A DNA stretch of 64,000 nucleotides from Candidatus Bathyarchaeota archaeon (GCA_963806535.1 CAWDYC010000003.1:160001-224000); one strand, 5' to 3'. Positions 17,000 to 35,668 are shown, numbered from the stretch's first letter. Translations and numbers: made by a program. The notes: generated from the sequence alone by a model not told the origin.

Positions 17000-17434
17000 A
17001 TGGTAAAAGTTGAAGCATACGAAGTGCCAGAAGGCCTTTACTACTCTAAAGATTTTGAATGGATAAAAATCGAAGGCGACAAAGTTCGCATGGGCATCAC
17101 CGACTACGCGCAGAAATCGCTTAGAGAAATTGTTTACGCTGAATTGCCAAGCGTTGGAACAGAAGTGAAACAAGGCGAGCCTTATGGAACACTGGAATCT
17201 GTTAAAGCCGTTTCAGACCTTGTTGCAGCCATAAGCGGAACAATCCAAGAAGTTAACGAAGAAGTCCAATCAAAACCCGAAACTCTCAACGAAGACCCAT
17301 ATGAAAAAGGCTGGTTAATTGTTGTTAAACCTTCAAACTTGCAGGCAGAGCTTGCAAACCTGATGGATTTCAACGGCGCTGTTGAGTGGCATAAAGCTCA
17401 AGCCCAAAATCAAATAAGCAGAAGGCAAAGTTGG
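17000..17434 (+). CDS. gcvH: glycine cleavage system H protein (lipoyl carrier)
   Basis: GITDYAQ, LESVKAVSD (lipoyl Lys), NEDPYEKGW; as given it reads in frame into the next gene. Confidence 0.9.
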
Positions 17435-18782
17435 ATGGCAAGACGCATAATTGTTATTGGAGCTAACGCATCAGGCGTAGAGGCAGCTTCAGCCGCACGC
17501 AAAAAAGACCGCACAGCCGAAATCACATTGGTCACTCAAGAAAAAAATGCAGGTTACTCACGCTGCGGCTTACCCTTTGTCATTGGCGGGCAAATCGCGA
17601 AATTTACCGACTTAATTGTTTACCCACCAGCATACTTTCAAATGTTAAAGCTCAATTTACGCTGCGAAACAAAAGCCACAGCAATCAACACCAAAGAAAA
17701 AACCGTAACCATCGCATCCAAAGAGGGAGCCACCGAAGTTTTGCCCTACGACAGCCTAGTAATTGCTACTGGCGCTGACTCTTTCATGCCGCCGATTAAA
17801 GGCAAAGAAAAAGCTGGAATCCTAAGCCTCCGAGGCATCGAAGACGGCGAAAAAATCGATGCCGCAGTCAAAGCAGGCGCAAAATCAGCAGTTATTATGG
17901 GTGCTGGCTTAATCGGTTTGGAAGTCGGCGTGGCTTTGATGGAGAAAGGCTTGAAAGTTACTGTCGTGGAAATGCTGCCGCAAATTTTGCCTCAGTTGCT
18001 TGATGCTGACATGGCAAAGCATGGTTCAAGAACATTTAGAACAGAAAGGCATGCGCATATTAACCAGCAAAGGCGTCGAAGAATTCCTTGGTGAAGACAA
18101 AGTTACAGCAGTTAAAGCAGGCGGCGAAACGATTGAGGCTGACCTGTTCATCAGCGCTTTCGGCGTGAGAGCAAACACAAAGCTCGCAGTTGATGCTGGA
18201 ATTCCGTTGGGTGAAACCCGCGCAATTAAAACTAATGGACGCATGGAAACAGACGTAAAAGATGTTTACGCTGTCGGCGACTGCGCTGAAGCCCCAAACA
18301 TAATCACTCATCGCCCCATGTGCGCTCAACTTGGCACCATTGCGGTTCGTCAAGGCAAAGTAGCTGGAGCAAACGCTGGAGGAGACTATTCACAGTTTTC
18401 AGGGATTTTAGCTTCCGCAGTCACAATGCTTTTTGAGATTGAAGCAGGAAACACAGGCTTAACCGAAACAGCAGCTGCACGCAACCGAATCGAAGTCGTC
18501 ACTGGAGCCATCAGCAGCAAGACCAAAGCAGATTATTTCCCAGGCGCCAAACCAATCAAAGTAAAACTTGTTGTTGAAAAAGAATCCCAACGCATCATCG
18601 GCGGACAAGTCATCGGCGGAGAAGAAGTGACCCAACGCATAAACTGCCTCAGCTTCGCCATCCAAAAAGGCATGACCGTACGAGAACTCGCCAAAGCAGA
18701 CACAGCCTATGCGCCACCGCTCTGCGAAACATGGGAACCCATGGTTCTAGCCGCAGAAATGGTACTAATGAAACTGCGGTAA
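17435..18782 (+). CDS. FAD-dependent pyridine nucleotide-disulfide oxidoreductase (CoA-disulfide reductase/NADH oxidase family; frameshift near 18020)
   Basis: IIVIGANASG, YSRCGLP (redox Cys), ATG, GAGLIGLE, YAVGDC, YAPP. Confidence 0.88.
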
Positions 18783-24517: not shown

Positions 24518-24735
24518 AAAACTGACCAACCCCAACTTCTTAAAGATACTCAGCTTAATTGCATTTTCCACTTCACTCGAAATTACTCCGTCCTGTGTGC
24601 CATATCTTTCAAATTGATGTTTGGATTTTTTGAATACAAACTCTTCTAAAAGTTGAGAAACAAAATTCTAATATTAACCAATGCAATTTCTTAATCCAAA
24701 CAGCTTAAATTGGGCATAACATAAGCAAACTGTGC

Positions 24736-24810
24736 GGGCCAATCGTCTAGCCTGGTTAGGACGTTGGCTTTACACGCCAAAGGTCGCCGGTTCAACTCCG
24801 GCTCGGCCCA
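24736..24810 (+). tRNA. tRNA-Val (anticodon TAC)
   Basis: GGGCCAA..TCGGCCCA acceptor stem (one A-C mismatch), D-arm, anticodon arm TTGGC-TTTACAC-GCCAA, T-arm GCCGG-TTCAACT-CCGGC. Confidence 0.95.
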
Positions 24811-25062
24811 CTCCTGATTCCCAAAAGCAGCTTGATTTAAGGTTTTTTGATTTTGTTGACCGTTACTAAATTCCGTAACGCCGTTACAGTTTTCCGTAAC
24901 GTTTAACCCAGAGTTATCAAGCAAAGCAAGTGCATCGCGCATTTGTGCTTTTTTGGCTTTTATGCGATGACGCAATACACGACTATAATCTGCATCAAAG
25001 CTTTCAGGGGACTCTAAGAACTTGTAGTTCGTATTTTGCTTAGCATTTTTTCCATTCCTCAA
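24767..25062 (-). CDS. integrase N-terminal fragment (intN)
   Basis: Reads into the att core as WAEPELNRRPLACKA, the same peptide that starts intC. Confidence 0.8.
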
Positions 25063-25565
25063 TTAATGCAAGAAGCTAATCGTCTATTTAACACCTTGAT
25101 TGTACGCATTTTTACGCTATTAACTTTTTACGGTGTTTAATCACCGTGCGGAAGCACACCGCCTTTTAACTCAGAGGTGAAAAGGCATCAGTTGGCTTCC
25201 CTGTTTAGGGGCCCATTTTGCTTTGTTGTTTCTACGACGTTCAAAAGCCGTGTAGAAAGCAACAGTGCCACTCAGGCTTGAATAGCAAAAAGACAAAACA
25301 ACTTGCCAAAACCTTATTTGTGCTAATAATCCTCAAAACGTAATGCTTATAAAGTAAAGTGTAGTGTACATATATTAAAACAAACGCTACCTATAGAGTT
25401 AAGTGTCCGCCGCTCTAAAAGTGCGCCTTGTTAATGAAACATGGAAGGCTTAAAAAATGTGCGGACACGAGAAATATACAACAAAAAAAAGTAAAATTTT
25501 TACAACTAAGCTGGTTTTTTCATCCAGATTAAATGACACCGAACTTTCATTTGGAATGACGCCGA

Positions 25566-26375
25566 ATGCAGAGCTCACCGCTGCGAAAAAGGAGGAACAA
25601 GAGCATGCATAATATTTGGATGCGTAAAATGGAAAACTTTGACAAGGGCTTGGTTAGCTTCCAAAAATTTGATTTAGGATTTATTGGCAATCAAGTTTCC
25701 GTTGCTATTAAGACCTACGATAAGGAAGGGCTTAATCATCAGGGACCACTTGAGAATATTATGGGTCTTGTAGCAGAATTGGCTTTTGAAGAATGGCTAA
25801 AAAGTTTTGGTGGAGTTCGTGGAAAGGATTACGAATGGAACGAACGCAGAGAGGATTATTGGAACAATGACCCAAGATCTTGGGATTTCAGGTTGCTCAA
25901 GAATGGTTTAACTTTTGAAATCGGAGCGGCAAAACCTAATCATCATTTGGCCGTAATGAAAGACGCAGCGCATAAAAAAGAATCTAATTATTTTGTTCAG
26001 GTAAGGATCATTTGGTTTAACTGTAAAATCAAGGTTTTAGATAAATGGTACGTTATTAACGCCAACTCATATACTCCCTTGGAAATAAAGGGCTCAGAAG
26101 AAATAAAATCCCTTGAAGCAGCCCAAGGAATAATCCAGAATGACACAATAGGCGAGGCGCAGATCTGTGGCTTCGATAAAGTCGGCACGATTGTTAAACA
26201 AGAGAATGGTTGGGTGTTTAGCAAAGCAGGCCAAAGGGAAACACCTTTCTCAAACGGCTTCATGAAGGAATTAAGCAATTTGTGCACAAGAAGCGATTTA
26301 GCAGCCATCATAAGGCGTGCCCTCGGTCTCCGCGAAGATAACAAAGAAAGTGAAGCACGACCTTACGGCATTTAA
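25566..26375 (+). CDS. hypothetical protein, possible PD-(D/E)xK restriction-endonuclease-like nuclease
   Basis: GLVAELAF...WDFRL..GLTFEIG spacing resembles the nuclease core (canonical Lys not evident); start uncertain. Confidence 0.45.
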   Translation: MQSSPLRKRRNKSMHNIWMRKMENFDKGLVSFQKFDLGFIGNQVSVAIKTYDKEGLNHQGPLENIMGLVAELAFEEWLKSFGGVRGKDYEWNERREDYWNNDPRSWDFRLLKNGLTFEIGAAKPNHHLAVMKDAAHKKESNYFVQVRIIWFNCKIKVLDKWYVINANSYTPLEIKGSEEIKSLEAAQGIIQNDTIGEAQICGFDKVGTIVKQENGWVFSKAGQRETPFSNGFMKELSNLCTRSDLAAIIRRALGLREDNKESEARPYGI

Positions 26376-26426
26376 AAGCCGTGTAAAACTGAGCGCGCCA
26401 TTTTGAAAAAATACAATCTACTGTTG

Positions 26427-26975
26427 CTAAAGTAATGTTGACAAATATGAGAAATTAGCCACGACCAAGGATATCACAAGTAAGGAAAGGAATAAGACTA
26501 AGAACGTTAAAGGGATCCAACGCTCAACCAAAGTAAGCTGTGGATATCTCGTTTTTTGGCTTCCCTGGTTTAAGTAATCCCATTCTTTGGCAAATGCAGC
26601 CACAGGCAATCTTTTTTCCATTTCGTGAATTACTTTGAATTTTGCTTCACTCAGTACTCTATAACATTTAATACTGTTATTCCAAATCAGACAAAAAACA
26701 ATTCCAGAAATAGACACGAGGGCAACCCACCAAAAGTACATGTTGCCAATTGGTTTGCTAACCTGAGATAATACACCAATTATCGTTATCAAAGCCGAAA
26801 CAAGGGTTAAATAAAACGTATTTGATTTGGAACGACGCTCAGAATTATTATCAGCCATTTCAACATATAATTTATACTGCTCAAGCAAATGGTCGTTAAA
26901 TTTCTCGCCATAAGTCTTTTCCTCAATTGGAAAAAGCTTAGTTTCTTTGATACCCGTCATCTCGTTGTTAGTCAT
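26427..26975 (-). CDS. 3-TM membrane protein (RipA/octameric-membrane-protein-like), putative effector
   Basis: LLEQYKLYVEMAD..SERR..N.FY motif, three hydrophobic helices, KFKVIHEMEKRLP; 4 bp downstream of the TIR gene. Confidence 0.65.
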   Translation of the reverse strand: MTNNEMTGIKETKLFPIEEKTYGEKFNDHLLEQYKLYVEMADNNSERRSKSNTFYLTLVSALITIIGVLSQVSKPIGNMYFWWVALVSISGIVFCLIWNNSIKCYRVLSEAKFKVIHEMEKRLPVAAFAKEWDYLNQGSQKTRYPQLTLVERWIPLTFLVLFLSLLVISLVVANFSYLSTLL

Positions 26976-26979
26976 CTTT

Positions 26980-27462
26980 TCACGGAGAATTAATTTCTCG
27001 GTCTATATCTTTTAAATTCCAATTCAATATAGGTGCTTTGTTGTCTTTCATAGCTTCTGGAATAGCATGATTTTTATCACGATTAATTCTAACACCAATG
27101 ACCTTCTTTCCTTGTCTGTAGGCTTCATCTATTTCCCAGTTTACCGCATTCCTCTCTGCGGTCTTTTCACCTATCATAACCACAACTACGCTCGTCTGAG
27201 CAATTCTTTGTTTGCAGTTTGTCCTCCATTTTTCATCAAATGGTTCTTTAACTGAGTAGTCCCTGAACTCAAGGTCATAATTATCGTTCTTTGCCTGCGA
27301 GCGCAAAAGGTCTACTTGAGCTTCATCATCAACATGAAAACTTATGAAAACGTTACGAAGCCGAGCTCGTTCTGCCTCATCAACAGTCCTATCAAAAGCT
27401 GCCTCTGATTCTCCAACACCTTTTGATGAACCAAGGCTATACCCGAAACTACCCCCACCCAT
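26980..27462 (-). CDS. ThsB-like TIR-domain protein (MTH538/DUF1863-like) with Gly-rich N-terminal extension
   Basis: NVFISF, DYS, SVVVVMIG, VNWEI (catalytic Glu), GKKVIGV; ATG 27462 follows a GGTGG SD-like motif, giving MGGGSFGY. Confidence 0.85.
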   Translation of the reverse strand: MGGGSFGYSLGSSKGVGESEAAFDRTVDEAERARLRNVFISFHVDDEAQVDLLRSQAKNDNYDLEFRDYSVKEPFDEKWRTNCKQRIAQTSVVVVMIGEKTAERNAVNWEIDEAYRQGKKVIGVRINRDKNHAIPEAMKDNKAPILNWNLKDIDREINSP

Positions 27463-27519
27463 GATTACCACCATTTTGTTAAAGTCATGTTATCGCTTTT
27501 AAGGTTTTTAAGACTTACC

Positions 27520-28158
27520 TTAGCGGTGATTTGAAGATTTTGAAAGACCATTTTCTGCAGCTATGCGTTCTTTGCAAGAAATACATTCTCCGCACGATTT
27601 CTCGGTCCCAGCATGGCAAGAGTAGGTCAAATTAAGCGGCAATCCATGTTTCCGAGCAAGCATTAAAGAATCAATCTTATCCAAATTTATCAAAGGAGCA
27701 AGAATTGTAATGTTTATGCCTAAGGCAAGGCTCAGCGTTTTTTGTGTTTGTGCCAAGAAATCCTTTGTTTGATCGGGAAATATTGGATTTGCTAAGATAC
27801 CCGTTGCAACAACGTAAGCTCCCTTATCATATCCATAGGCTGCGCCGAAGGTTAGGAAAAGTAGATTCCGCGTAGGAGTGAAGGCTTCCTTTTCAATATC
27901 CAAATCTTTGTTTGTTAGACCGCTTGGTACAATTCTGCCAAAGTCGTGTGCGTTTATTCTTTCGGGAGTTAACTTAAGATAATTACAGATTTTCTGACAG
28001 GATGACCATTCCTCTTCACAGGCAAGTTGTCCATAATCTACAAATAATGGAAAAACTCTGTGCCCTTTCATTTGTAATTGTTGCATAATAACAGAGGAGT
28101 CAACTCCACCCGAGCAAAGAACTACGACTCTCAATTCCTCTTCCTCATATAATTCCAA
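27520..28158 (-). CDS. QueC-family (7-cyano-7-deazaguanine synthase-like; Cap9-like) ATP pyrophosphatase
   Basis: SGGVDS PP-loop, DYGQ, PTRNL, PD, SCH..CGECISC Zn motif. Confidence 0.9.
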   Translation of the reverse strand: MELYEEEELRVVVLCSGGVDSSVIMQQLQMKGHRVFPLFVDYGQLACEEEWSSCQKICNYLKLTPERINAHDFGRIVPSGLTNKDLDIEKEAFTPTRNLLFLTFGAAYGYDKGAYVVATGILANPIFPDQTKDFLAQTQKTLSLALGINITILAPLINLDKIDSLMLARKHGLPLNLTYSCHAGTEKSCGECISCKERIAAENGLSKSSNHR

Positions 28159-28832
28159 ACAGCCATGTCAAATGTTGCCATTAGTAAGCCTCTCTCCTCG
28201 CACAGTTCTTTGAGAATATCCTCAAGCTCAAGGTATATTCTGGGAGTAACAGATTTTATCTGCAGTCCATTAAGCGCGTTAATCTTTGTCAGAAATGAAA
28301 TAATGTGTGTGTCAATTATTGCGAGTTTTTTAGAATAACCTATATTTCTCAAAAAATGAGATGCTTCCTTAAGACCAATTCCAGAAATATTCTTAATTAG
28401 TGATGATCTTGCATCTTCCTCTGAACTAGAATGAGCCAAAACGCAATGCAACCATGTTTCCTCAGAAGATATGATTGTTGCTGACTTTGTAATATTTTTG
28501 GAGCGAACATTAGGGAAACGATATTTTCTTAGTTCACCATCGGTTTTCTTGGGAAAATAAATTGGCTTTGAAAGCTCTTTAGCAATTATCTTGTCGGCTA
28601 AAGGATTATCAGCTATCCATTCAACGGACAGATAGCCTCGTCTTATCAAATGCCTTACTGCTGAAAAAGCAAGCTCATATGGAACATTACTTGACAAGAT
28701 ACAAAGACATAGTTCATGCCACAAATCAGTTTCTGTCATAAGGTCCCATTTTCGATTTTCAAAGTGGAGAGCTGGTATTGTTGAGTATTCTAACAAAACG
28801 CCGTTAAATGTTTCATTATCTGCAATGAGCAT
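28131..28832 (-). CDS. N-glycosylase/DNA lyase (8-oxoG glycosylase OGG-like; Cap11-like)
   Basis: ELCLCILS, YRFPN.R, HhH motif GIGLKEASHFLRNIG, AIIDTHI. Confidence 0.85.
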   Translation of the reverse strand: MLIADNETFNGVLLEYSTIPALHFENRKWDLMTETDLWHELCLCILSSNVPYELAFSAVRHLIRRGYLSVEWIADNPLADKIIAKELSKPIYFPKKTDGELRKYRFPNVRSKNITKSATIISSEETWLHCVLAHSSSEEDARSSLIKNISGIGLKEASHFLRNIGYSKKLAIIDTHIISFLTKINALNGLQIKSVTPRIYLELEDILKELCEERGLLMATFDMAVWNYMRKRN

Positions 28833-28946
28833 TGGTTGAATCTCGGTTTTTATCTTTACATTTAGAATGCGCTAAAAATATATATCCTTAACTATTTTTC
28901 ATTTAATTAATTTTGATCACTTTTTATTGCATTATAGATAAATATT

Positions 28947-29957
28947 CTAAAATTTATCTATTCTATTAAGAATATCGTCACCAATTTGAACCTTCAGAGA
29001 AGCACGTAAATTGTCATAACGTATCATATTCTGCATTTTGACAACAAAGTCTTGATAATATAGCAGATTATGCAATAAAGCCCTGTCTAAATAGGCTGAT
29101 GATGCCAATTTAGGATTGCTGCAGATTCTACATTTGCAATTAATCAAATCAAGATGTGAAAAATCTTTTATTGTGTCGTCTCCGGGGTCCAAAATATGTT
29201 CGATCCAATCTAAGCTGTCGAAACTGTCAGAACCGCAATACGCATAAATTAACATTGAAATAGGGTTTCCACAACCTAAGACATGTAAAAGAAACCTTTC
29301 ATCACTTTTGTCAAGAATGTGTCTGATTTCAGTAAGAGTTTCCGCTCTTTCCAAAATGCCTTTACCGCAATCCCTTTCAGAAACAGCAATACCACAACAC
29401 AAACTGGAATACTCATCAATAAAATCACTAACTAATGCCAATTGATGGTCAACTGATTTTCCATGAAGGATCGGCAGAAAAATATTTCCACCACAGAAGG
29501 CTGATGATTCAACCGCTGCTTGCACTACATTTTCTTGGTATTGTTTAACGTTCTTGGTATTTTCCGCGGTTGGAAGAATATCGAAGCCGGTAAAGATATC
29601 CATCGTGACCTGAGAAATAACGCTTTTGTATGCTTTCATATCCCAAGTTGGATCATTCTTATTATCGCTCTCAAATACGCCGCTATCCAAAAGTAAAAAG
29701 CCTTGTTTTCTAAATTCAGCGATGCTTTGCTTAAGTTTTTCTTTTTCTTCGAGTTTGTTAATATCATAAGCTGAAAGCAATAATCGCGGATACTTATTAT
29801 GTTTTAGCATGTAAAAAAGTTCAGTCAAAGAAAATCGGTTTTTAGTACTGGACAACGATGGAAAATAGGTTGGAGTATTGAAGACCTTATTTTCAAATTT
29901 TATCTCACAAATCCTTGCAAGTTTCCCATTTTTATGTTGTATTGTTGCTTTATTCAA
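28947..29957 (-). CDS. tRNA-guanine transglycosylase (TGT)-fold protein (Cap10/DpdA-like)
   Basis: TPTYFP, LLDSGVFE, PILHG, HVLGCG, FDS, CKCRIC...HN Zn site; no C-terminal PUA domains. Confidence 0.85.
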   Translation of the reverse strand: MNKATIQHKNGKLARICEIKFENKVFNTPTYFPSLSSTKNRFSLTELFYMLKHNKYPRLLLSAYDINKLEEKEKLKQSIAEFRKQGFLLLDSGVFESDNKNDPTWDMKAYKSVISQVTMDIFTGFDILPTAENTKNVKQYQENVVQAAVESSAFCGGNIFLPILHGKSVDHQLALVSDFIDEYSSLCCGIAVSERDCGKGILERAETLTEIRHILDKSDERFLLHVLGCGNPISMLIYAYCGSDSFDSLDWIEHILDPGDDTIKDFSHLDLINCKCRICSNPKLASSAYLDRALLHNLLYYQDFVVKMQNMIRYDNLRASLKVQIGDDILNRIDKF

Positions 29958-30106
29958 CTAAGGCACTCCAGATCCTTATTTCAATAGTTCCTATTTGTAG
30001 GGTTATATTATAAAGAATTAACTACTAAATAGAATTATACAAAGAAACTTACCTTGAAAAGTTAGAAATAAATGATTTACTAAAGGATAGTCTGTGTGGA
30101 AGACAT

Positions 30107-30580
30107 TTGAAGAGGCTAACTTTAAGCGTAGCTCAAACAGCAATTTTCGCTTCTATTTATGCTGTTTCATCGATTTTGCTTGGGCCACTGGGATATTCAT
30201 GGATTCAGTTACGGATTGGAGAAGCCTTGACTCCCCTGCCGCTACTTTTTGGAATTCCTGCAATGGCTGGATTAACCATCGGGTGTTTTGTTACCAATTT
30301 AACGAGCCCAGTGGGTTTGCCTGACATGGTTTTCGGGCCCTTACTGACTCTAATTGCCGCATTTCTTTCTTGGAAATTAACATTTGGCAAACGCATTTTA
30401 GCTTGTTTATATCCGGTTATCATAAATGCAATAGGCGTAAGTGCCTATCTTTCATCTTTCTATGGCGTCCCATACTTGGTCACCGTTTTGACCGTTGGCG
30501 CTGGAGAGTTTGTTGCTGCAGTTATTATTGGATATCCAACATTATTGGCGTTAAGAAAATTTATGGGTAATAAAAAGTAG
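30107..30580 (+). CDS. QueT-family queuosine-precursor transporter
   Basis: IQLRIGEAL..LP, GLTIGCFV.N..SP.G..D..FG signature; ~5 TM helices. Confidence 0.85.
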   Translation: MKRLTLSVAQTAIFASIYAVSSILLGPLGYSWIQLRIGEALTPLPLLFGIPAMAGLTIGCFVTNLTSPVGLPDMVFGPLLTLIAAFLSWKLTFGKRILACLYPVIINAIGVSAYLSSFYGVPYLVTVLTVGAGEFVAAVIIGYPTLLALRKFMGNKK

Positions 30581-30712
30581 AGATTCTTTTGTTTCGTCGT
30601 GACTTTACTCAGGCCTCAAATCCCTCGCTCACTCAATGAGGGTACGTCATAGTGAGTTGTGCACGTGATTGAACACCGTGCAAAAGCGTAGAGCCGTGAG
30701 CTTTGGAGCCAT

Positions 30713-31236
30713 CTATGAAATCTGACTAATACATTCCTGCAACAGTTGCCGATAAGTTGCTTGCCAACCGTTTGAAGGGAATGGTATAGATATTTTGTTC
30801 AGTAATCTCTCGCCAAAACCGGCTTCTTCAAGTGCAAGCTTGACTGGGGCAAATAAATTATTTTTCAAAATAATGATTCTTTCTGGCTGAAGGCTTCTAA
30901 TATCATTTACAAGCCTTGGAATTTGATCTTTTAGAACTCTGTTTTTTCCGCAATAGGCAACTTGTTGACTGGTCTATAGCTGGCATCTATCAAGAAGAAT
31001 CCTCTTGATTGGAACTCTTTTAGCTGGGTGTTTTTGTCAGTGCCGACAGGTAATTTGCCACAAGGAATTTTCAATGCTTTCATTGTTTCCCTGAATAAAC
31101 AGCCACGACCGGTTGCTGACTCAAAATAAAAGTATCCGCCGCCTTCGGGTGGTGACTCGCCAATAAGAAGGAATTCAATGTCTTTGCCTATTCGTCGTGG
31201 GTCATATTTGTCCCTTGCTTCAATATAGTCTTGCAT
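30713..31236 (-). CDS. uracil-DNA glycosylase superfamily protein (frameshift in A-run near 30945)
   Basis: LLIGESPP..G.YFY, GFFLID; second frame ..LQPERIIIL...IPFPS.GWQ to TAG at 30713. Confidence 0.65.
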
Positions 31237-31625
31237 GTCAACAGCTACGGCTTCTGATTTATTAGATTTAGCGGATAAATACGATGATTCTTTGTCGCCA
31301 ACTTGTTTAATCTTAATAGCCTATGTACTTGTACGGTGATTGAACACCGTGAAGAAGCATAGGCCGTAGTAAAAAGCGGAGATTAGCATTAACCGATCAA
31401 GTCAAACATATTTGAAGCCTAATATGTTTCAGGGAGCTTGCATTAGCACCTTAAAGCACTGTTGTGTTTCTGTACGGTGTTCAAACACCGTGGCTAAACA
31501 TAGGCTAAGGACAAAGGCGACGGAAGACCAAGCATGGTCGAATCCTACTTAAGCTATGATCCAGTTGAACTGCTAAAATATTCGACCGGCTTTCTCGACC
31601 GAAAAAATCAAAATGAGTCATTTTT

Positions 31626-31829
31626 TTACTTATGCCAGAGCCTACTTAATAGATAGATTACAGCGGTAGCTGCAAGCAGCACTGGAACTATGAACACATT
31701 AGCTTCCATCCACTGCCAAATTGGTCCCGGTAACCCAAACATACCTATGCCATAACCAGCTAAGACTACAATCCAAACAAAACTATACAGGGCGATTACT
31801 GCAATCCATACCTTCATGAGCTTACGCAT
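31626..31829 (-). CDS. small 2-TM membrane protein
   Basis: MRKLMKVWIAVIALYSFVW...; two hydrophobic segments. Confidence 0.55.
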   Translation of the reverse strand: MRKLMKVWIAVIALYSFVWIVVLAGYGIGMFGLPGPIWQWMEANVFIVPVLLAATAVIYLLSRLWHK

Positions 31830-31917
31830 TTTCTCACTTTTGAAACCACTTATAATCCATAGGTTATCCATCAACCACATAAAAGCTTTTGACTTATCCG
31901 TGCAAGAGGACACAAGG

Positions 31918-32067
31918 TTGCCGAAGCGATATGTTAACATAAAATTGCCTGTTGAGCTTGCAGACGAAGTTGACAAAATCGTGGATAAGAAGCTTCTGGG
32001 ATACCGCAGCAGAGGAGAATTTGTAGCGGAAGCGGTGAGAGACAAGCTAATCCAAGTTAAAAAATAA
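31918..32067 (+). CDS. ribbon-helix-helix (CopG-like) DNA-binding protein
   Basis: YVNIKLPVELADEVDKIV..GYRSRGEFVAEAVR; TTG start after GAGGA. Confidence 0.8.
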   Translation: MPKRYVNIKLPVELADEVDKIVDKKLLGYRSRGEFVAEAVRDKLIQVKK

Positions 32068-32331
32068 TTAACCTAAACGACCTTACAGACTATACATGGC
32101 TTTTAAACGCCGTAAAAGATACTAAAACAAAATTGGTCCTTAAAGAGCAAAATCAGCCGATTGCACTTTTGTACCTTTAGGCAAAAAAGCGGTGTGCTCC
32201 TGTACGGTGTTCGATCACCGTAAACAAAATCTGCGTTCCCTCAGCGTCTAATCTTATTCAATTGCGATGAACCGAGTGTTTAGTCAAAATACTTACCCTA
32301 AAGTCTTATATTAAGAAAGCACAACTAAAAA

Positions 32332-32892
32332 TTGATGAGCCTACCTACACTTGATCCAGCAGAGTTTGAAACTCTACGATCCACTTTAGTAAGCACTTAC
32401 AACTCACAAACTACCGCTCATGTAGGATATATAATAGCTTTTGCCATAGGCATCGCAGCCATTCTTTACCAAATTGACTTTAAGACTTTCTTTAAAGACT
32501 ACCCATCAAAAAAGCAGCGTTATCCTTTATTTTATGTTCCATTAAGTGGTCTAATTGGAGGAATCGTCTTCCTTTTTTACCGCGTAATTTTCTGGGCTTA
32601 TATGAGTACGTATGTCTTACGTGTACCCGCTACACAAGTTGCAGCATTGCTTGCTGCGTATGCAAGTGATCCAACTGTCACTGAGATTTATGCGATTCAA
32701 CTTAGCTGCACTCAAAAATTTGTTGGAACGCACAGTTTAGCCAGCACTTTTTACTCTTTTGCAAGTAATTCTCTTTTAGATTCTACGTTATTATTTTTGG
32801 GGTTTTCCATCATTGCGTTCTTAATAACTTTGCTATTAGACTACATTTTGTACAAAAAGAAAGATACACCCGTTAAGAAGAACAACAACTAA
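32332..32892 (+). CDS. hypothetical 3-TM membrane protein
   Basis: 186-aa ORF with three hydrophobic helices. Confidence 0.6.
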   Translation: MMSLPTLDPAEFETLRSTLVSTYNSQTTAHVGYIIAFAIGIAAILYQIDFKTFFKDYPSKKQRYPLFYVPLSGLIGGIVFLFYRVIFWAYMSTYVLRVPATQVAALLAAYASDPTVTEIYAIQLSCTQKFVGTHSLASTFYSFASNSLLDSTLLFLGFSIIAFLITLLLDYILYKKKDTPVKKNNN

Positions 32893-32977: not shown

Positions 32978-33859
32978 TCAGTTTACTCCATTTTCCATTG
33001 TAGCTAAAGCACTCAAGGTTCGGTCCCTAAGCTCTTTGAACGATGGGCTCCAGTAATGGCGTATAAATATGGACGGTGGTATTCTGCCTTGCAACAAATC
33101 CACCTCTTCTTTTATCAGACCGTTTCTAACCATGAATGTGCCAAAGCTGTCTCTAAGTTCATTTATTCTACACCGCATTTTTTTTCGTTGCAACCGTTTG
33201 AGTATTGCATTGTAACCGACTGGTTGGCTTTTTGCAATCTCATCAATTAGGTTTTTTGGCACAATCGATATGTACACATTCTTCGTACCGCGTAAGAACA
33301 GCTTTTTGAATTGAAAGTGCTCCAAAAGCCCATCAGTATTAAGGTAGCAGTCTAACTTGCCTTCTTTTGACAACTCGATTATTTTGTTAAACGAATTTAC
33401 AGCCTCTTCCTTACGCAAACCACTTAGACGCAAATATTCTAAAAGCACCTTTTCCTCAGGTTTAAGCAAAGGCTGTACAGCAGATACCACTCCCATAAAT
33501 CACTATTATGGTTATTGTACAATCGACTGAAAGAGGAGAAGGCATCCCGCTTACGCCACTTAATCCCATAACTTTTTAGAGCTGCCCTGAACTCCTCATG
33601 AAAACCAAGATACTTACAAAGCGCAATCAAAGACTTAATTGAATTATCCCTTAATGACTCTGGAATTGCATCGATATCCCTGAGATTGCCGTATAAAATG
33701 TGATTGTACTTTTTCGTATAGGTCATGATGGTGTGAGCATAGGACTTTGCATATTTTTTGAAAACCCACACCTTAAATTCTGCCCAGTCAAGGTCGCGTA
33801 TGCCTGCTTCGAGGAGCGCTTTACACGCCAAAGGTCGCCGGTTCAACTCCGGCTCGGCC
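32978..33859 (-). CDS. tyrosine integrase catalytic fragment (intC; frameshift near 33495)
   Basis: SGLR..EA (Arg), RGTK (Lys), ELR, LLQGR, RHY (Tyr); begins within attR. Confidence 0.88.
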
Positions 33860-33909
33860 AACCACCATTCCTGCTAAAGGCTGAATCAAGAAGGTTTAGG
33901 AAAAGACTA

Positions 33910-35505
33910 TTATCTAATGATCTTTGCTTTCTTGGCTCTTATCAATAGTTCAAACCCAACGGCAGCAACTACCACAACCACAATAGCAACTGCTATTTCA
34001 AAGTCTGCTTGTGGCCAACTTGAGTCTGCATGATTTTGACTTTTTAAAGCTACAGCGAAAGGTGAGGGAGTAGCAGTGCTAAATGGACTTGATGTTTCTG
34101 TTGGGGCAGGTGTTGGATTTGGAGATTGATTAATGTTGGAGTTTTGATATGGCGTTGGAGTTGGATTTGTGTTTGGGTTTGATGAAGGCGAGGGAGTTGG
34201 TGATGGCGTAACGATAGGGGTTGGGCTAGTTTTTGGAGTAGGCGTTGGAGTTGTGGTTGGAATTGGGGATGGTGTTGCAGTCGATTTTGGTGTTGGTACT
34301 GGGGTAGGTGAGGCAGTGGGAGTTGGCGTTGGGAAGGAAATGTAATTTGGAACTATCGGAGCGGTTGGGTCTGGCGCAGTTAGGAAAGGCACAAAAGTTA
34401 CTTGGTTTGAGATTATTTGGGCGATGGTTTGTTGATCAGTTGTTCCCCACCAATTAGAAGCCATATTTACGTTTAAAGAATATTGATAGTTTTTGACAAT
34501 GTTATTGTTGGTTATGGAGACTGGTCCATATTTGCCTAGGGTGTTCAATCCGACAGTGTTATTGATGATTGTGTTGTGTTGAATAGTTGCTGAGACTGGA
34601 GACATAGGTCCCGTGAACAAAATGCCGATGTTGTTACCAATGATGAGATTTCTTTCGATTGTTGTTGTTCCATCATATAGGTTAATGGCTGTTTTGCATC
34701 CGAATATGGTGTTGTCTGCTATGTAGGTGTTGCTTCCTGAAGCCAAGATTCCTGTGCCTAGATAGTAGCTTAATGTTATTCCTTGTTCGATGGTGTTATT
34801 CTCGATTACAGGTGTGCTTGTAAGAAAACCTGAGCCAAGTATTCCACCGATGATGTAGTTGTTGATTATGGTTGGTGAAGCATCATTTACTGTTTCAATA
34901 TCTCCGGATAAAGTGTTGCTTGCGATTATCGGCGAGCCACTGGTTACTGTAATTGCGTTGCCATCATCCGCGTTATAAGAGGGAGTGATGGTGCAATTGC
35001 TTATTTTGGGCGAGGCGCTACTTGTGGATATAGAGACGGAATGAAGAATTGAGTTTTCAATTATGCAGCCCTTACTATTTTGTTCATTCCAGCTTTGGCT
35101 GCCAGCAGTGAAAACGATATTTCCATCGCCTGAGGAAACAAAAACTATTGGGCAGTTGTTTGTTCCTCGTGCATATAGGATGCCGTTTACCTGCAGATTG
35201 TACCCGTTTAAGTTAATGGTTGCGCCCGCTTCGACTGTTAAGGTTGTTCCACTGCTTACAATAACTGGGGAGTTAAGATAATATGGACTGTTACTTTGCG
35301 TCCAAGAGGTATCCACATTTATTAGACCCCCAACATTTGTGCCGTTTTGCGCCAAGGTAAAGGGTATGGCTCCAGCCAAAATTAATGAACAAGAGATTAT
35401 GGCAACTAAACATAGGCTTAAAAGTATTTTATTCAAACCATGTTCTCCTTTTAGCGAATCTTTTGCAAAATCGGGAAGCAAAAATAGATTTACTGATTTG
35501 CCCAT
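33910..35505 (-). CDS. right-handed beta-helix surface protein with Pro/Thr linker and C-terminal TM
   Basis: Signal peptide, DTSWT..SPY, Asn-ladder repeats, NWWGTTD, PT run, TM+KK; real start may be ~80 bp downstream. Confidence 0.8.
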   Translation of the reverse strand: MGKSVNLFLLPDFAKDSLKGEHGLNKILLSLCLVAIISCSLILAGAIPFTLAQNGTNVGGLINVDTSWTQSNSPYYLNSPVIVSSGTTLTVEAGATINLNGYNLQVNGILYARGTNNCPIVFVSSGDGNIVFTAGSQSWNEQNSKGCIIENSILHSVSISTSSASPKISNCTITPSYNADDGNAITVTSGSPIIASNTLSGDIETVNDASPTIINNYIIGGILGSGFLTSTPVIENNTIEQGITLSYYLGTGILASGSNTYIADNTIFGCKTAINLYDGTTTIERNLIIGNNIGILFTGPMSPVSATIQHNTIINNTVGLNTLGKYGPVSITNNNIVKNYQYSLNVNMASNWWGTTDQQTIAQIISNQVTFVPFLTAPDPTAPIVPNYISFPTPTPTASPTPVPTPKSTATPSPIPTTTPTPTPKTSPTPIVTPSPTPSPSSNPNTNPTPTPYQNSNINQSPNPTPAPTETSSPFSTATPSPFAVALKSQNHADSSWPQADFEIAVAIVVVVVAAVGFELLIRAKKAKIIR

Positions 35506-35555
35506 TCTGTTTTCCTCACAAAACTTTCTATTTTTTTTGAATTAAAAGCATTCTC

Positions 35556-35595
35556 GTCAAGAATTCTTAACGAACAGTAGTCAAACTTTCTTGAC
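35556..35595. promoter_or_regulatory. tandem palindromic operator GTCAAG-N4-CTTGAC x2
   Basis: GTCAAGAATTCTTAAC (35556) and GTCAAACTTTCTTGAC (35580); same arrangement at 42526/42550. Confidence 0.65.
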
Positions 35596-35644
35596 TAAAC
35601 TTTTCTGCTGTTTCTTCCCTGAAAGCTAGAATTAAATGCCTGAA

Positions 35645-35668
35645 GGTTCAACTCCGGCTCGGCCCACT
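35645..35668 (+). repeat. third, 24-bp copy of the tRNA-Val 3' end (att remnant)
   Basis: GGTTCAACTCCGGCTCGGCCCACT identical to 24789-24812. Confidence 0.9.

What the first reader, a model, noticed from the sequence alone, without database searches (positions are those of the whole stretch)
26427..30580. Candidate new antiviral system: type IV CBASS ancillary trio wired to a TIR enzyme and membrane effector instead of a CD-NTase
Seen: a co-oriented run TGT-fold > OGG-type glycosylase > QueC > ThsB-like TIR (catalytic Glu intact) > 3-TM protein, with a divergent QueT, on a mobile element. No cGAS/DncV-like cyclase or ThsA is present in the element. Established: QueC (Cap9), TGT (Cap10) and N-glycosylase (Cap11) define type IV CBASS; ThsB TIRs make NAD-derived signals in Thoeris. 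Inference: a CBASS-IV/Thoeris hybrid in which deazaguanine chemistry controls TIR signalling or NAD cleavage and triggers a pore-type effector. I cannot confirm from sequence alone that it is undescribed.
Basis: partly seen in the sequence, partly recalled or inferred. Interest (0 to 1): 0.92.

Follow-up and report, generated by a model that had tools for sequence, protein, structure and literature searches.

The report
Archaeal TIR defence with deazaguanine-tagging helpers
A small mobile element in an archaeal genome carries a TIR-enzyme plus membrane-protein antiviral module together with three helper genes known from type IV CBASS that probably tag the TIR protein with a deazaguanine base; this layout was already noted in a 2025 preprint, but an accompanying transporter gene seems not to have been described.

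Summary
On the minus strand, 29957..26427 encodes a Cap10-like TGT, a Cap11-like OGG glycosylase, a Cap9-like QueC, a ThsB-type TIR and a 3-TM protein of Pfam family 8xMP. QueT lies divergently at 30107-30580. All six genes sit inside a 9.05-kb element integrated in tRNA-Val.

The TIR protein starts M-GGGSFGYS. This is the same kind of Gly-rich N-terminal tail that Cap9 and Cap10 deazaguanylate on the CD-NTase of type IV CBASS. The tail accompanies Cap genes in all 12 Cap-positive genome loci and is clearly missing in 29 of 33 Cap-negative ones. Metagenomic sister loci carry the same tail on genuine CD-NTases.

The claim of novelty fails. Yirmiya et al. (bioRxiv, December 2025) already report Thoeris operons with cap9, cap10 and cap11, though they did not test them experimentally.

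Several points go beyond the main texts I could search:
- QueT is a conserved sixth gene, present in 36 of 70 loci with enough upstream sequence, and these loci form one Cap10 clade.
- The tail is shared across client enzyme types.
- The effector is an 8xMP protein.
- Hosts are mostly archaeal.
- The carrier is an integrative element with an SSV-type split integrase.

Verdict: a new member of a known, untested kind. Interest is moderate.

The parts
24736..24811 (+). tRNA-Val(TAC). Its 3' 45 nt (24767-24811) form attL of the integrated element.
   Evidence: ARAGORN and Rfam; direct repeat D1.
24812..25062 (-). 5' part of the split integrase gene (upstream portion of ORF 24691-25062, which runs through attL).
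   Evidence: In a circularised element the frame is open for 224 codons, from 25062 across the junction to 33442.
25566..26375 (+). Element ORF of 269 aa, function unknown, convergent with the effector gene.
   Evidence: No Pfam, PADLOC, NCBIfam or PHROGs hit. Atlas features resemble viral hypothetical proteins.
26427..26975 (-). Predicted effector: a 182-aa membrane protein of Pfam family 8xMP with three hydrophobic helices.
   Evidence: PF24838 5.2e-38. Hydrophobic segments at about 51-76, 78-102 and 147-182. AF2 model with pLDDT 87. Adjacent to the TIR gene in 35 of 45 genome loci.
26980..27462 (-). ThsB-type TIR protein of 160 aa. It has a roughly 35-residue N-terminal extension starting M-GGGSFGYS, the proposed deazaguanylation site at Gly2.
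   Evidence: PF08937 7.8e-20. Homologues start MGGG. The tail co-occurs with Cap genes. A tail HMM hits CD-NTase clients.
27520..28158 (-). Cap9-like QueC-family ATP-dependent ligase.
   Evidence: PADLOC QueC 5.3e-35. PDB Cap9 9nto_B 3.5e-20. Below the QueC equivalog cut-off, 124.1 against 150.3.
28131..28832 (-). Cap11-like OGG/AGOG-type HhH glycosylase.
   Evidence: PF22175 7.8e-36. PDB archaeal N-glycosylase/DNA lyase 3fhg 1.4e-20.
28947..29957 (-). Cap10-like TGT-fold protein.
   Evidence: PADLOC TGT 4.3e-23. Its only PDB hit is Cap10 9ntn_A. DSG, H225, D247 and the Cys/His zinc site are invariant in 49 homologues.
30107..30580 (+). QueT-family membrane protein (predicted 7-deazaguanine precursor transporter), divergent from Cap10 and inside the element.
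   Evidence: PF06177 1.4e-35. Present next to Cap10 in 36 of 70 loci with at least 700 nt upstream.
30931..32892 (.). Three small element ORFs of unknown function: 30931-31236 (-), 31626-32045 (-), 32332-32892 (+).
   Evidence: No Pfam or PHROGs hits.
32978..33861 (-). Integrase gene, middle and catalytic parts, in two overlapping frames (33439-33861 and 32978-33496).
   Evidence: PF16795 4.9e-8. phrog_5127 integrase 8.8e-10. 71% identical to an integrase beside the same cassette in L001.
33818..33862 (+). attR: the second copy of the 45-nt tRNA-Val 3' segment (44 of 45 identical).
   Evidence: family D1.

Best explanation
This is a Thoeris-like abortive-infection system whose signal-making TIR enzyme is controlled by the deazaguanylation machinery known from type IV CBASS. 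It is carried as cargo on a 9-kb integrative element in tRNA-Val of an archaeon, probably a Bathyarchaeia-like one.

Proposed mechanism, step by step:
1. After Met1 is removed, Gly2 of the TIR protein is amide-linked to 7-carboxy-7-deazaguanine by the Cap9-like QueC, using ATP. This gives an N-terminal 7-amido-7-deazaguanine (NDG). The step is inferred by homology with Cap9/CdnD.
2. The Cap10-like TGT-fold protein binds the NDG tail. It holds or primes the TIR, or transfers it to a target that is still unknown. Inferred.
3. The Cap11-like glycosylase acts as a negative regulator. Inferred from the published proposal.
4. On infection the TIR makes an NAD-derived signal, such as a cADPR isomer. 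Inferred from the ThsB family.
5. The signal binds the cytosolic face of the 8xMP protein, where RR and Glu residues are conserved. The protein oligomerises and damages the membrane. Inferred.
6. QueT, conserved beside Cap10 in one large clade, supplies the deazaguanine precursor. Inferred.

What is shown directly: the gene identities, the tail and its co-variation with Cap genes, the recurrence of the layout, and the boundaries of the element.
For: **Relation to Cap9 and Cap10.** The QueC is closer to Cap9 than to canonical QueC in the PDB. The TGT hits only Cap10, and the residues aligned to Cap10's H226/D248 pair are conserved. The genome has its own housekeeping QueC, which passes TIGR00364 at 196.8 bits against a 150.3 cut-off, and its own ArcTGT at 284 bits. 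The element copies are therefore extra paralogues.

**The tail.** The published Cap9/Cap10 substrate peptide is GGSGGSFGSGFDPR on Gly2 of CdnD (passages read). The window TIR begins M-GGGSFGYSLGSS, and most of its 120 listed homologues begin MGGG.

**Co-variation in 45 genome loci found with the TIR.** All 12 loci with Cap genes have the N-terminal extension. Of the 33 loci without Cap genes, 29 have a TIR starting directly at the TIR domain.

**A crude motif rule** finds the tail in 46 of 59 TIR ORFs in Cap-positive loci, against 3 of 30 in Cap-negative loci.

**80 metagenome loci found with Cap10:**
- 44 have a TIR after Cap9, and 36 of these are followed by 8xMP.
- 7 have a SMODS CD-NTase with the same tail plus a Cap17-like effector.
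- 2 have a divergent TIR.
- 1 has an HD-CE protein.
- 26 end at contig edges.

A tail HMM built only from TIR proteins scores 49-61 bits on all 7 CD-NTases. In the Cap10 tree the CD-NTase-linked rows nest among the TIR-linked rows.

**Independent statement in print.** Yirmiya et al. report the architecture and AF3 models, with ipTM 0.79 for ThsB-Cap10 and 0.62 for ThsB-Cap9.
Against: No experiment exists for any TIR-Cap9/10/11 operon. Yirmiya et al. only note and model them.

- Exceptions to the tail rule exist. L010, from a complete 0.8-Mb genome, and L015 have tail-bearing TIRs with no Cap10 nearby. L010's genome has no Cap10 at all.
- In the motif count, 13 of 59 Cap-positive TIR ORFs miss the rule. 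Nine are Gly-rich variants, two are second tail-less TIRs, one is L034 and one is unclear.
- The loci are related to one another and the searches were seeded with this family. The counts are therefore not independent samples.
- The signal molecule, and whether this TIR signals or simply depletes NAD, cannot be read from sequence.
- 8xMP has no solved relative and no PADLOC model. Its pore role is an analogy.
- No QueE (the CDG synthase) was detected in the host, so the source of the Cap9 substrate is open.
- The integrase reading frame is broken, so the element may no longer move.
Confidence: 0.72

Rival explanations
1. Two unrelated neighbours. QueT, TGT, OGG and QueC form a deazaguanine salvage or nucleic-acid modification cluster (Dpd-like, or for archaeosine) carried by the element. 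TIR and 8xMP form an independent two-gene Thoeris-like module that merely sits beside it.
For: TIR-8xMP pairs occur on their own in many genomes: 23 of the 33 Cap-negative loci have 8xMP next to the TIR. The OGG-like protein resembles real archaeal DNA glycosylases. The host has a QueT-QueC housekeeping pair, so QueT and QueC can work together in metabolism.
Against: The gene order TGT-OGG-QueC-TIR is fixed in 10 of the 11 genome loci that have TGT, and in the 44 metagenome loci with a TIR. The TIR gains its N-terminal tail only where Cap genes are present. The same tail sits on CD-NTases in sister loci. The TGT matches Cap10 and no tRNA or DNA transglycosylase structure at E <= 1e-3, and it had no other PADLOC hit. 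The QueC falls below the QueC equivalog cut-off.
Confidence: 0.1
2. The TIR is the killing effector itself, an NADase that depletes NAD once it is released or activated through deazaguanylation. 8xMP is then a membrane anchor, sensor or regulator rather than a signal-activated pore.
For: Bacterial TIR domains act as NAD-depleting effectors in several systems, as stated in Yirmiya et al. (section read). Nothing in the sequence distinguishes cyclase-type from hydrolase-type TIR activity. 8xMP has no demonstrated pore function.
Against: The TIR is a small stand-alone ThsB-type protein. Its best PADLOC and Pfam hits are ThsB, and its PDB relatives include ThsB1 cyclic ADP-ribose synthase. It is paired with a small membrane protein, as in Thoeris types with TM effectors. 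In sister loci the 8xMP slot is taken by SLATT proteins, which are known signal-activated effectors.
Confidence: 0.13
3. The cluster is a decayed, non-functional remnant on an immobilised element.
For: The integrase is in two frames (33439-33861 and 32978-33496). attR has one mismatch.
Against: All six cassette genes are intact open frames with conserved catalytic motifs. They are 64-82% identical at protein level to those of a second genome, L001, which fits purifying selection.
Confidence: 0.05

Closest known systems
[quoted passage not shown] 6G and S10B; passages read, figures and tables not seen)
   Same: A TIR (ThsB) plus an effector, preceded by cap10, cap11 and cap9 homologues. The TIR is proposed to contact Cap9 and Cap10 as the CD-NTase does.
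   Different: Their modelled example is from a Pseudomonadales bacterium. The one here is archaeal and on an integrative element. Their main text names no 8xMP effector, no QueT and no N-terminal Gly tail. Their supplementary tables could not be opened and may list some of these.
Type IV CBASS (CD-NTase with Cap9/Cap10, sometimes Cap11; Wassarman et al., preprint 10.1101/2025.04.06.647259, passages read)
   Same: Cap9-like, Cap10-like and Cap11-like genes, with a client enzyme carrying a Gly-rich N-terminus directly after Met1. Sister loci of this window (L071, L076, L079 and others) are true type IV CBASS with the same tail and the same QueT neighbour.
   Different: There is no CD-NTase in the element or the genome. 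The client is a TIR, and the effector is an 8xMP membrane protein rather than a CBASS Cap effector.
Type VII Thoeris (TIR + SLATT effector ThsH, signal canonical cADPR; Yirmiya et al., section read)
   Same: A small stand-alone TIR next to a small helical membrane protein. Some Cap-linked TIR loci (L102, L123) do use SLATT proteins.
   Different: The window's effector is 8xMP, not SLATT: its best SLATT match is SLATT_5 at E 0.55. The signal is unknown.
QatABCD (the QueC-like QatC deazaguanylates QatB; abstracts seen)
   Same: A QueC-family enzyme used for protein modification in defence.
   Different: The window QueC scores only 19.8 bits against the QatC model, whose cut-off is 280. There is no QatA, QatB or QatD.
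Dpd-type 7-deazaguanine DNA modification (a DpdA TGT paralogue inserting preQ0 into DNA; recalled, and in the listing)
   Same: A TGT-fold protein and a QueC on a mobile element.
   Different: The TGT matched only the CBASS-type TGT model in PADLOC and only Cap10 in the PDB. No DpdB/DpdC-like partners were found among the element's ORFs.

Membership tests
Type IV CBASS | A CD-NTase (SMODS) signal synthase in the operon | tested here: not met
   No SMODS or PADLOC cyclase hit in any element ORF. No PF18144 match in the whole genome, which is 91.75% complete.
Type IV CBASS | Cap9 (QueC-like) and Cap10 (TGT-like) ancillary genes | tested here: met
   PADLOC QueC 5.3e-35 and TGT 4.3e-23. Best or only PDB hits are Cap9 9nto_B and Cap10 9ntn_A.
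Type IV CBASS | Client enzyme with a Gly-rich N-terminus after Met1 (the NDG site) | tested here: met
   The TIR starts MGGGSFGYS, but the client is a TIR, not a CD-NTase. Chemical modification is not testable here.
Thoeris (TIR signalling systems) | ThsB-type TIR protein with conserved catalytic Glu | tested here: met
   PF08937 7.8e-20 and PADLOC ThsB 9.1e-19. E110 and E113 are invariant in 40 homologues. Which of the two is catalytic rests on the recalled WxxxE motif.
Thoeris (TIR signalling systems) | A conserved adjacent effector gene | tested here: met
   8xMP is next to the TIR in 35 of 45 genome loci, and in 36 of 44 metagenome loci that have Cap genes and a TIR.
Thoeris (TIR signalling systems) | Infection-triggered NAD-derived signal that activates the effector | not testable with these tools
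   Needs LC-MS and toxicity assays.
Thoeris with Cap9-11 (Yirmiya et al.) | TIR and effector in one operon with cap9, cap10 and cap11 | tested here: met
   Co-oriented run 29957..26427. The same order recurs in 10 genome loci and in the 44 metagenome loci with a TIR.
Canonical QueC (preQ0 synthase) | Score above the NCBIfam equivalog cut-off (TIGR00364, 150.3 bits) | tested here: not met
   124.1 bits. The genome's other QueC scores 196.8.
tRNA-guanine / archaeosine transglycosylase | Score above TIGR00432 (350 bits) or TIGR00449 (47.6 bits) | tested here: not met
   37.9 and 22.5 bits. A separate ArcTGT-like gene scores 284 bits on PF01702.
SSV-type integrative element | Direct repeats at a tRNA gene, with an integrase gene partitioned by integration | tested here: met
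   45-nt repeat. The frame is continuous for 224 codons across the circular junction. PF16795 integrase domain.
SSV-type integrative element | Intact integrase reading frame after excision | tested here: not met
   The catalytic part (32978-33496) is in a different frame from 33439-33861. Whether this is a sequencing error or a real frameshift is undecided.

The most novel reading that the evidence does not exclude
Cap10, Cap11 and Cap9 together with QueT form a portable regulatory cassette that is indifferent to its client enzyme. It recognises a roughly 35-residue N-terminal tag, a Gly-rich start plus one helix. That tag has been moved between at least three or four enzyme classes: SMODS CD-NTases, two TIR lineages and possibly an HD-CE protein.

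In a large, mostly archaeal clade the cassette brings its own QueT importer, which would feed 7-carboxy-7-deazaguanine (or a precursor) to Cap9. Antiviral priming would then depend on salvaged deazapurines.

The host here has a housekeeping QueT-QueC pair and no detectable QueE. That fits QueT delivering the QueC/Cap9 substrate.
Probability: 0.35. Interest if true: 0.6.

Novelty: new member of a known kind. Interest (0 to 1): 0.4.

Why it matters
Deazaguanylation of proteins was discovered only in 2025, and its downstream target is unknown. The same Cap9/10/11 module, recognising the same N-terminal tag, serves TIR enzymes as well as CD-NTases, often within one Cap10 clade. This argues that the modification regulates the client in a generic way and is not tied to nucleotide-cyclase chemistry.

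The archaeal TIR systems, the conserved QueT and the very short tag give concrete handles for experiments:
- mass spectrometry of Gly2;
- swapping the tag between clients;
- making defence depend on supplied precursor.

The locus also adds an example of signalling-based immunity carried by a small integrative element in uncultured archaea.

Tried and rejected
**Complex prediction.** I ran complex prediction on the Cap10-like protein (alignment A3) with the TIR (alignment A1). It returned 'no answer' with a score of 0.02, and the controls were not run. I do not use it either way.

**Solved relatives of 8xMP.** The sequence search of the PDB found none at E <= 1. Foldseek of a pLDDT-87 model against the PDB found nothing at E <= 0.001. 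A Pfam scan at E <= 10 gave only SLATT_5 at 0.55.

**Literature on 8xMP/RipA.** Four searches (include these) found no paper on the family. The name 'RipA family octameric membrane protein' comes only from an automatic Atlas cluster label. My link to Francisella RipA is recalled and untested.

**Other negative searches:**
- The viral-contig scan with Cap10 found no relatives.
- No preQ1 riboswitch or other Rfam family besides the tRNA was found in the window.
- QueE was sought with TIGR03365 and TIGR04508. The best scores were 29 and 21.6 bits, far below the cut-offs. The two best candidates turned out to be NrdG and a SPASM maturase. Other QueE models were not run genome-wide, so absence is not proven.

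**Rejected readings.**
- Housekeeping queuosine or archaeosine genes.
- Dpd-like DNA modification and Qat.
- Hidden CD-NTase in the 269-aa ORF: no hits.

**Limits on what I could see.**
- Supplementary tables of the papers were closed. Tables S1 and S3 of Yirmiya et al. and Table S2 of the Biochem J QueC paper may already list 8xMP or QueT neighbours.
- The Science version of Wassarman et al. was not held. Only the preprint was searched.

Full report
**What is there.** On the minus strand, in transcription order:

- A 336-aa TGT-fold protein, 28947-29957. Pfam TGT 1.8e-9; PADLOC's CBASS-type TGT model 4.3e-23.
- A 233-aa Ogg-HhH glycosylase, 28131-28832. PF22175 7.8e-36.
- A 212-aa QueC, 27520-28158. 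PF06508 1.4e-38; PADLOC CBASS-type QueC 5.3e-35.
- A ThsB-type TIR, 26980-27474. PF08937 7.8e-20; PADLOC ThsB 9.1e-19.
- A 182-aa membrane protein of Pfam family 8xMP, 26427-26975. 5.2e-38.

A QueT gene (PF06177 1.4e-35) lies divergently at 30107-30580. The membrane protein has three hydrophobic segments. Its AF2 model (pLDDT 87) has long helices at 26-71, 79-120 and 147-181.

**The element.** The 3' 45 nt of tRNA-Val(TAC) (24767-24811) are repeated at 33818-33862, with 44 of 45 bases identical. A third, partial copy lies at 35623-35667. The first two copies bound a 9,051-bp segment that contains all six genes, four ORFs without family matches, and an archaeal-type integrase (PF16795 4.9e-8; phrog_5127 8.8e-10).

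When the element is circularised in silico, the minus-strand frame is open for 224 codons, from 25062 across the junction to 33442. This is what an SSV-type integrase gene split by its own integration would show. The catalytic part (32978-33496) is in another frame, so the gene is either frameshifted or mis-sequenced.

A Bathyarchaeota MAG (L001) carries the same six-gene block, 72% identical in DNA over 4.1 kb, beside a 71%-identical integrase. The window's genome is archaeal: an archaeal proteasome beta subunit lies next to its housekeeping QueC.

**Not housekeeping genes.**
- The genome (2.95 Mb, 12 contigs, 91.75% complete) has a second QueC on another contig. That copy passes the QueC equivalog cut-off (196.8 against 150.3 bits). 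The element copy does not (124.1) and is about 30% identical to it.
- A 284-bit ArcTGT-like gene lies on a third contig.
- Among solved structures, the element QueC is closest to Cap9 (9nto_B, 3.5e-20), ahead of QueC 3bl5 (2.7e-14).
- The TGT-like protein hits only Cap10 (9ntn_A, 4.8e-5), and none of the many tRNA transglycosylases at E <= 1e-3.
- The residues aligned with Cap10's H226/D248 pair are invariant in 49 homologues, as are the DSG motif and the Cys/His zinc site.
- No SMODS CD-NTase is found in the element or in the genome.

**The key link: the N-terminal tail.** Wassarman et al. showed that Cap9 attaches 7-amido-7-deazaguanine to Gly2 of the CD-NTase. The N-terminal peptide of that enzyme is GGSGGSFGSGFDPR, and Cap10 binds the modified tail (preprint passages read).

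The window's TIR ORF reads MVVIMGGGSFGYSLGSS. Starting at the second ATG gives M-GGGSFGYS. Gene callers chose that start, and most of the 120 listed homologues are about 160 aa and start MGGG or LGGG.

I fetched 45 genome loci with the TIR family and annotated them with the window's proteins and with HMMs built from them.
- Twelve loci have Cap genes next to the TIR. In all twelve, the TIR has a 30-60-residue N-terminal extension with a Gly-rich start.
- Thirty-three loci have no Cap genes. In 29 of them the TIR starts directly at the TIR domain, M(R/K)NVFISF.
- The four exceptions are L006 (contig edge), L007 (Gly-rich upstream frame without a clear start), and L010 and L015 (clear tails). 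The genomes of L007 and L010 hold no Cap10 at all.

A crude motif rule finds the tail in 46 of 59 TIR ORFs in Cap-positive loci and in 3 of 30 in Cap-negative loci. Of the 13 misses, nine are Gly-rich variants such as MGAGG or MSGSG, two are second tail-less TIRs, one is L034 (a QueC 5 kb away) and one is unclear. The sequences are related to each other, so the Fisher p of 5.5e-10 is descriptive only.

**Sister loci.** A metagenome scan with a Cap10 alignment returned 80 loci. The gene after the Cap9 homologue is:
- a TIR in 44 loci, 36 of them followed by 8xMP;
- a SMODS CD-NTase in 7, followed by a Cap17-like effector;
- a divergent ThsB-type TIR in 2;
- an HD-CE protein in 1;
- unknown in 26, because the contig ends.

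The CD-NTases start MGGGSSYSGPS..EAE.IFKS, which is the same tail and helix as on the TIRs. An HMM built only from the first 35 residues of TIR proteins scores 49-61 bits on all seven.

In a Cap10 tree of 80 rows, the CD-NTase-linked Cap10s nest inside a 22-row clade (SH-aLRT 96) together with TIR-linked ones. At least five client changes are needed to explain the tree (quick search, midpoint drawing only, several long branches flagged). The scan was seeded with TIR-linked Cap10s, so these proportions say nothing about the wider family.

**QueT.** Of 70 loci with at least 700 nt upstream of Cap10, 36 have QueT.
- TIR loci: 20 of 50.
- CD-NTase loci: 5 of 5.
- Divergent-TIR loci: 2 of 2.
- HD-CE locus: 1 of 1.
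- Unknown client: 8 of 12.

QueT is nearly always divergent and directly upstream. In L122 it lies downstream of 8xMP instead. QueT-linked rows form one 39-row clade that includes the window (SH-aLRT 93).

The host also has a housekeeping QueT immediately upstream of its housekeeping QueC. No QueE was detected by two models, and the two best candidates are NrdG and a SPASM maturase. A QueT that feeds a QueC suggests transport of a QueC substrate such as CDG, which is also what Cap9 uses. This is inference only. QueE could be in the missing 8% of the genome or too divergent to detect.

No paper in the searchable library holds both 'QueT' and 'CBASS'. QueT or 'transporter' is absent from the main texts of the Wassarman preprint, the Yirmiya preprint and the Biochem J QueC-family paper.

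**Comparison with what is known.** The architecture is already in print. Yirmiya et al. [quoted passage not shown] 6G). They report AF3 models of a Pseudomonadales ThsB with Cap10 (ipTM 0.79) and Cap9 (0.62). They did not test these operons.

A search for 'Cap10' with 'Thoeris' returns only that preprint, a QatABCD structural paper and two reviews. One of the reviews mentions only the CBASS case.

The finding is therefore a new, archaeal member of a kind that is described but untested. It is not a type IV CBASS, because it has no CD-NTase. It fits Thoeris by its TIR and adjacent effector, and it works like type IV CBASS in its regulation.

The 8xMP effector is not SLATT by Pfam (SLATT_5 at E 0.55). 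It has no PADLOC model and no solved relative. Its conserved RR, Glu and Trp residues lie in the predicted cytosolic parts.

**Mechanism and confidence.** I rate the reading 'Cap9/10/11-regulated Thoeris-like system' at about 0.72 overall. Gene identities, recurrence, tail co-variation and element borders are shown. NDG on Gly2 of the TIR is a strong inference by homology. The nature of the signal, the pore action of 8xMP, the role of Cap11 and the role of QueT are inferred by analogy.

The rivals are less likely: two unrelated neighbouring modules, TIR acting as an NADase effector, and a decayed remnant. The reasons are given in their entries.

Complex prediction returned 'no answer'.

Noticed in passing
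window 25119-25159, 25233-25257, 26364-26388, 30665-30691, 31322-31362, 31463-31503, 32193-32221: A palindromic motif of the type TACGGTGTTCAAACACCGT recurs seven or more times in intergenic spots of the element (repeat families D2-D4). It could be a terminator hairpin or an operator site for an element regulator.
   Followed up: no
window 33863-35667: A third, partial copy of the att repeat lies at 35623-35667; its last 24 nt or so are identical. It bounds a second 1.8-kb segment holding a 531-aa NosD-like beta-helix protein (33910-35505). GC skew there is very high (0.407 at 34001-35000). This may be the remnant of a tandem integration.
   Followed up: no
L118:3603-5789: In one metagenome locus the gene after the Cap9 homologue is an HD-CE/HD-domain protein starting MGTPGIS. 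It is followed by a protein with squalene-hopene-cyclase-like repeats. This is a possible third client class for Cap9/10/11. The tail HMM did not hit it.
   Followed up: partly
L010 (complete 0.8-Mb archaeal genome) and L015: The TIR carries a clear M-GGG tail and, in L010, an adjacent 8xMP. No Cap10 was found within 7 kb, or anywhere in L010's genome. These are orphan tails without the modifying enzymes.
   Followed up: partly
G000 contig C5:27483-28632 (L126): A housekeeping QueT-QueC operon is present. No QueE was detected in the 91.75%-complete genome by two QueE models, while QueD and ArcTGT are present. The organism may salvage a QueC substrate.
   Followed up: partly
L119:7367-7777, L123:8165-9055, L102:6758-7687: Some Cap-linked TIR loci carry SLATT-domain effectors instead of 8xMP. 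Two also carry a second, tail-less TIR next to the SLATT gene.
   Followed up: partly
window 17000-18782: A glycine-cleavage H domain fused to a pyridine-nucleotide disulphide oxidoreductase is split over two overlapping ORFs, 17000-18094 and 18000-18782. This is either a frameshift or a sequencing error.
   Followed up: no
window 25566-26375: A 269-aa element ORF has no family match. By language-model features it resembles hypothetical proteins of tailed viruses.
   Followed up: partly
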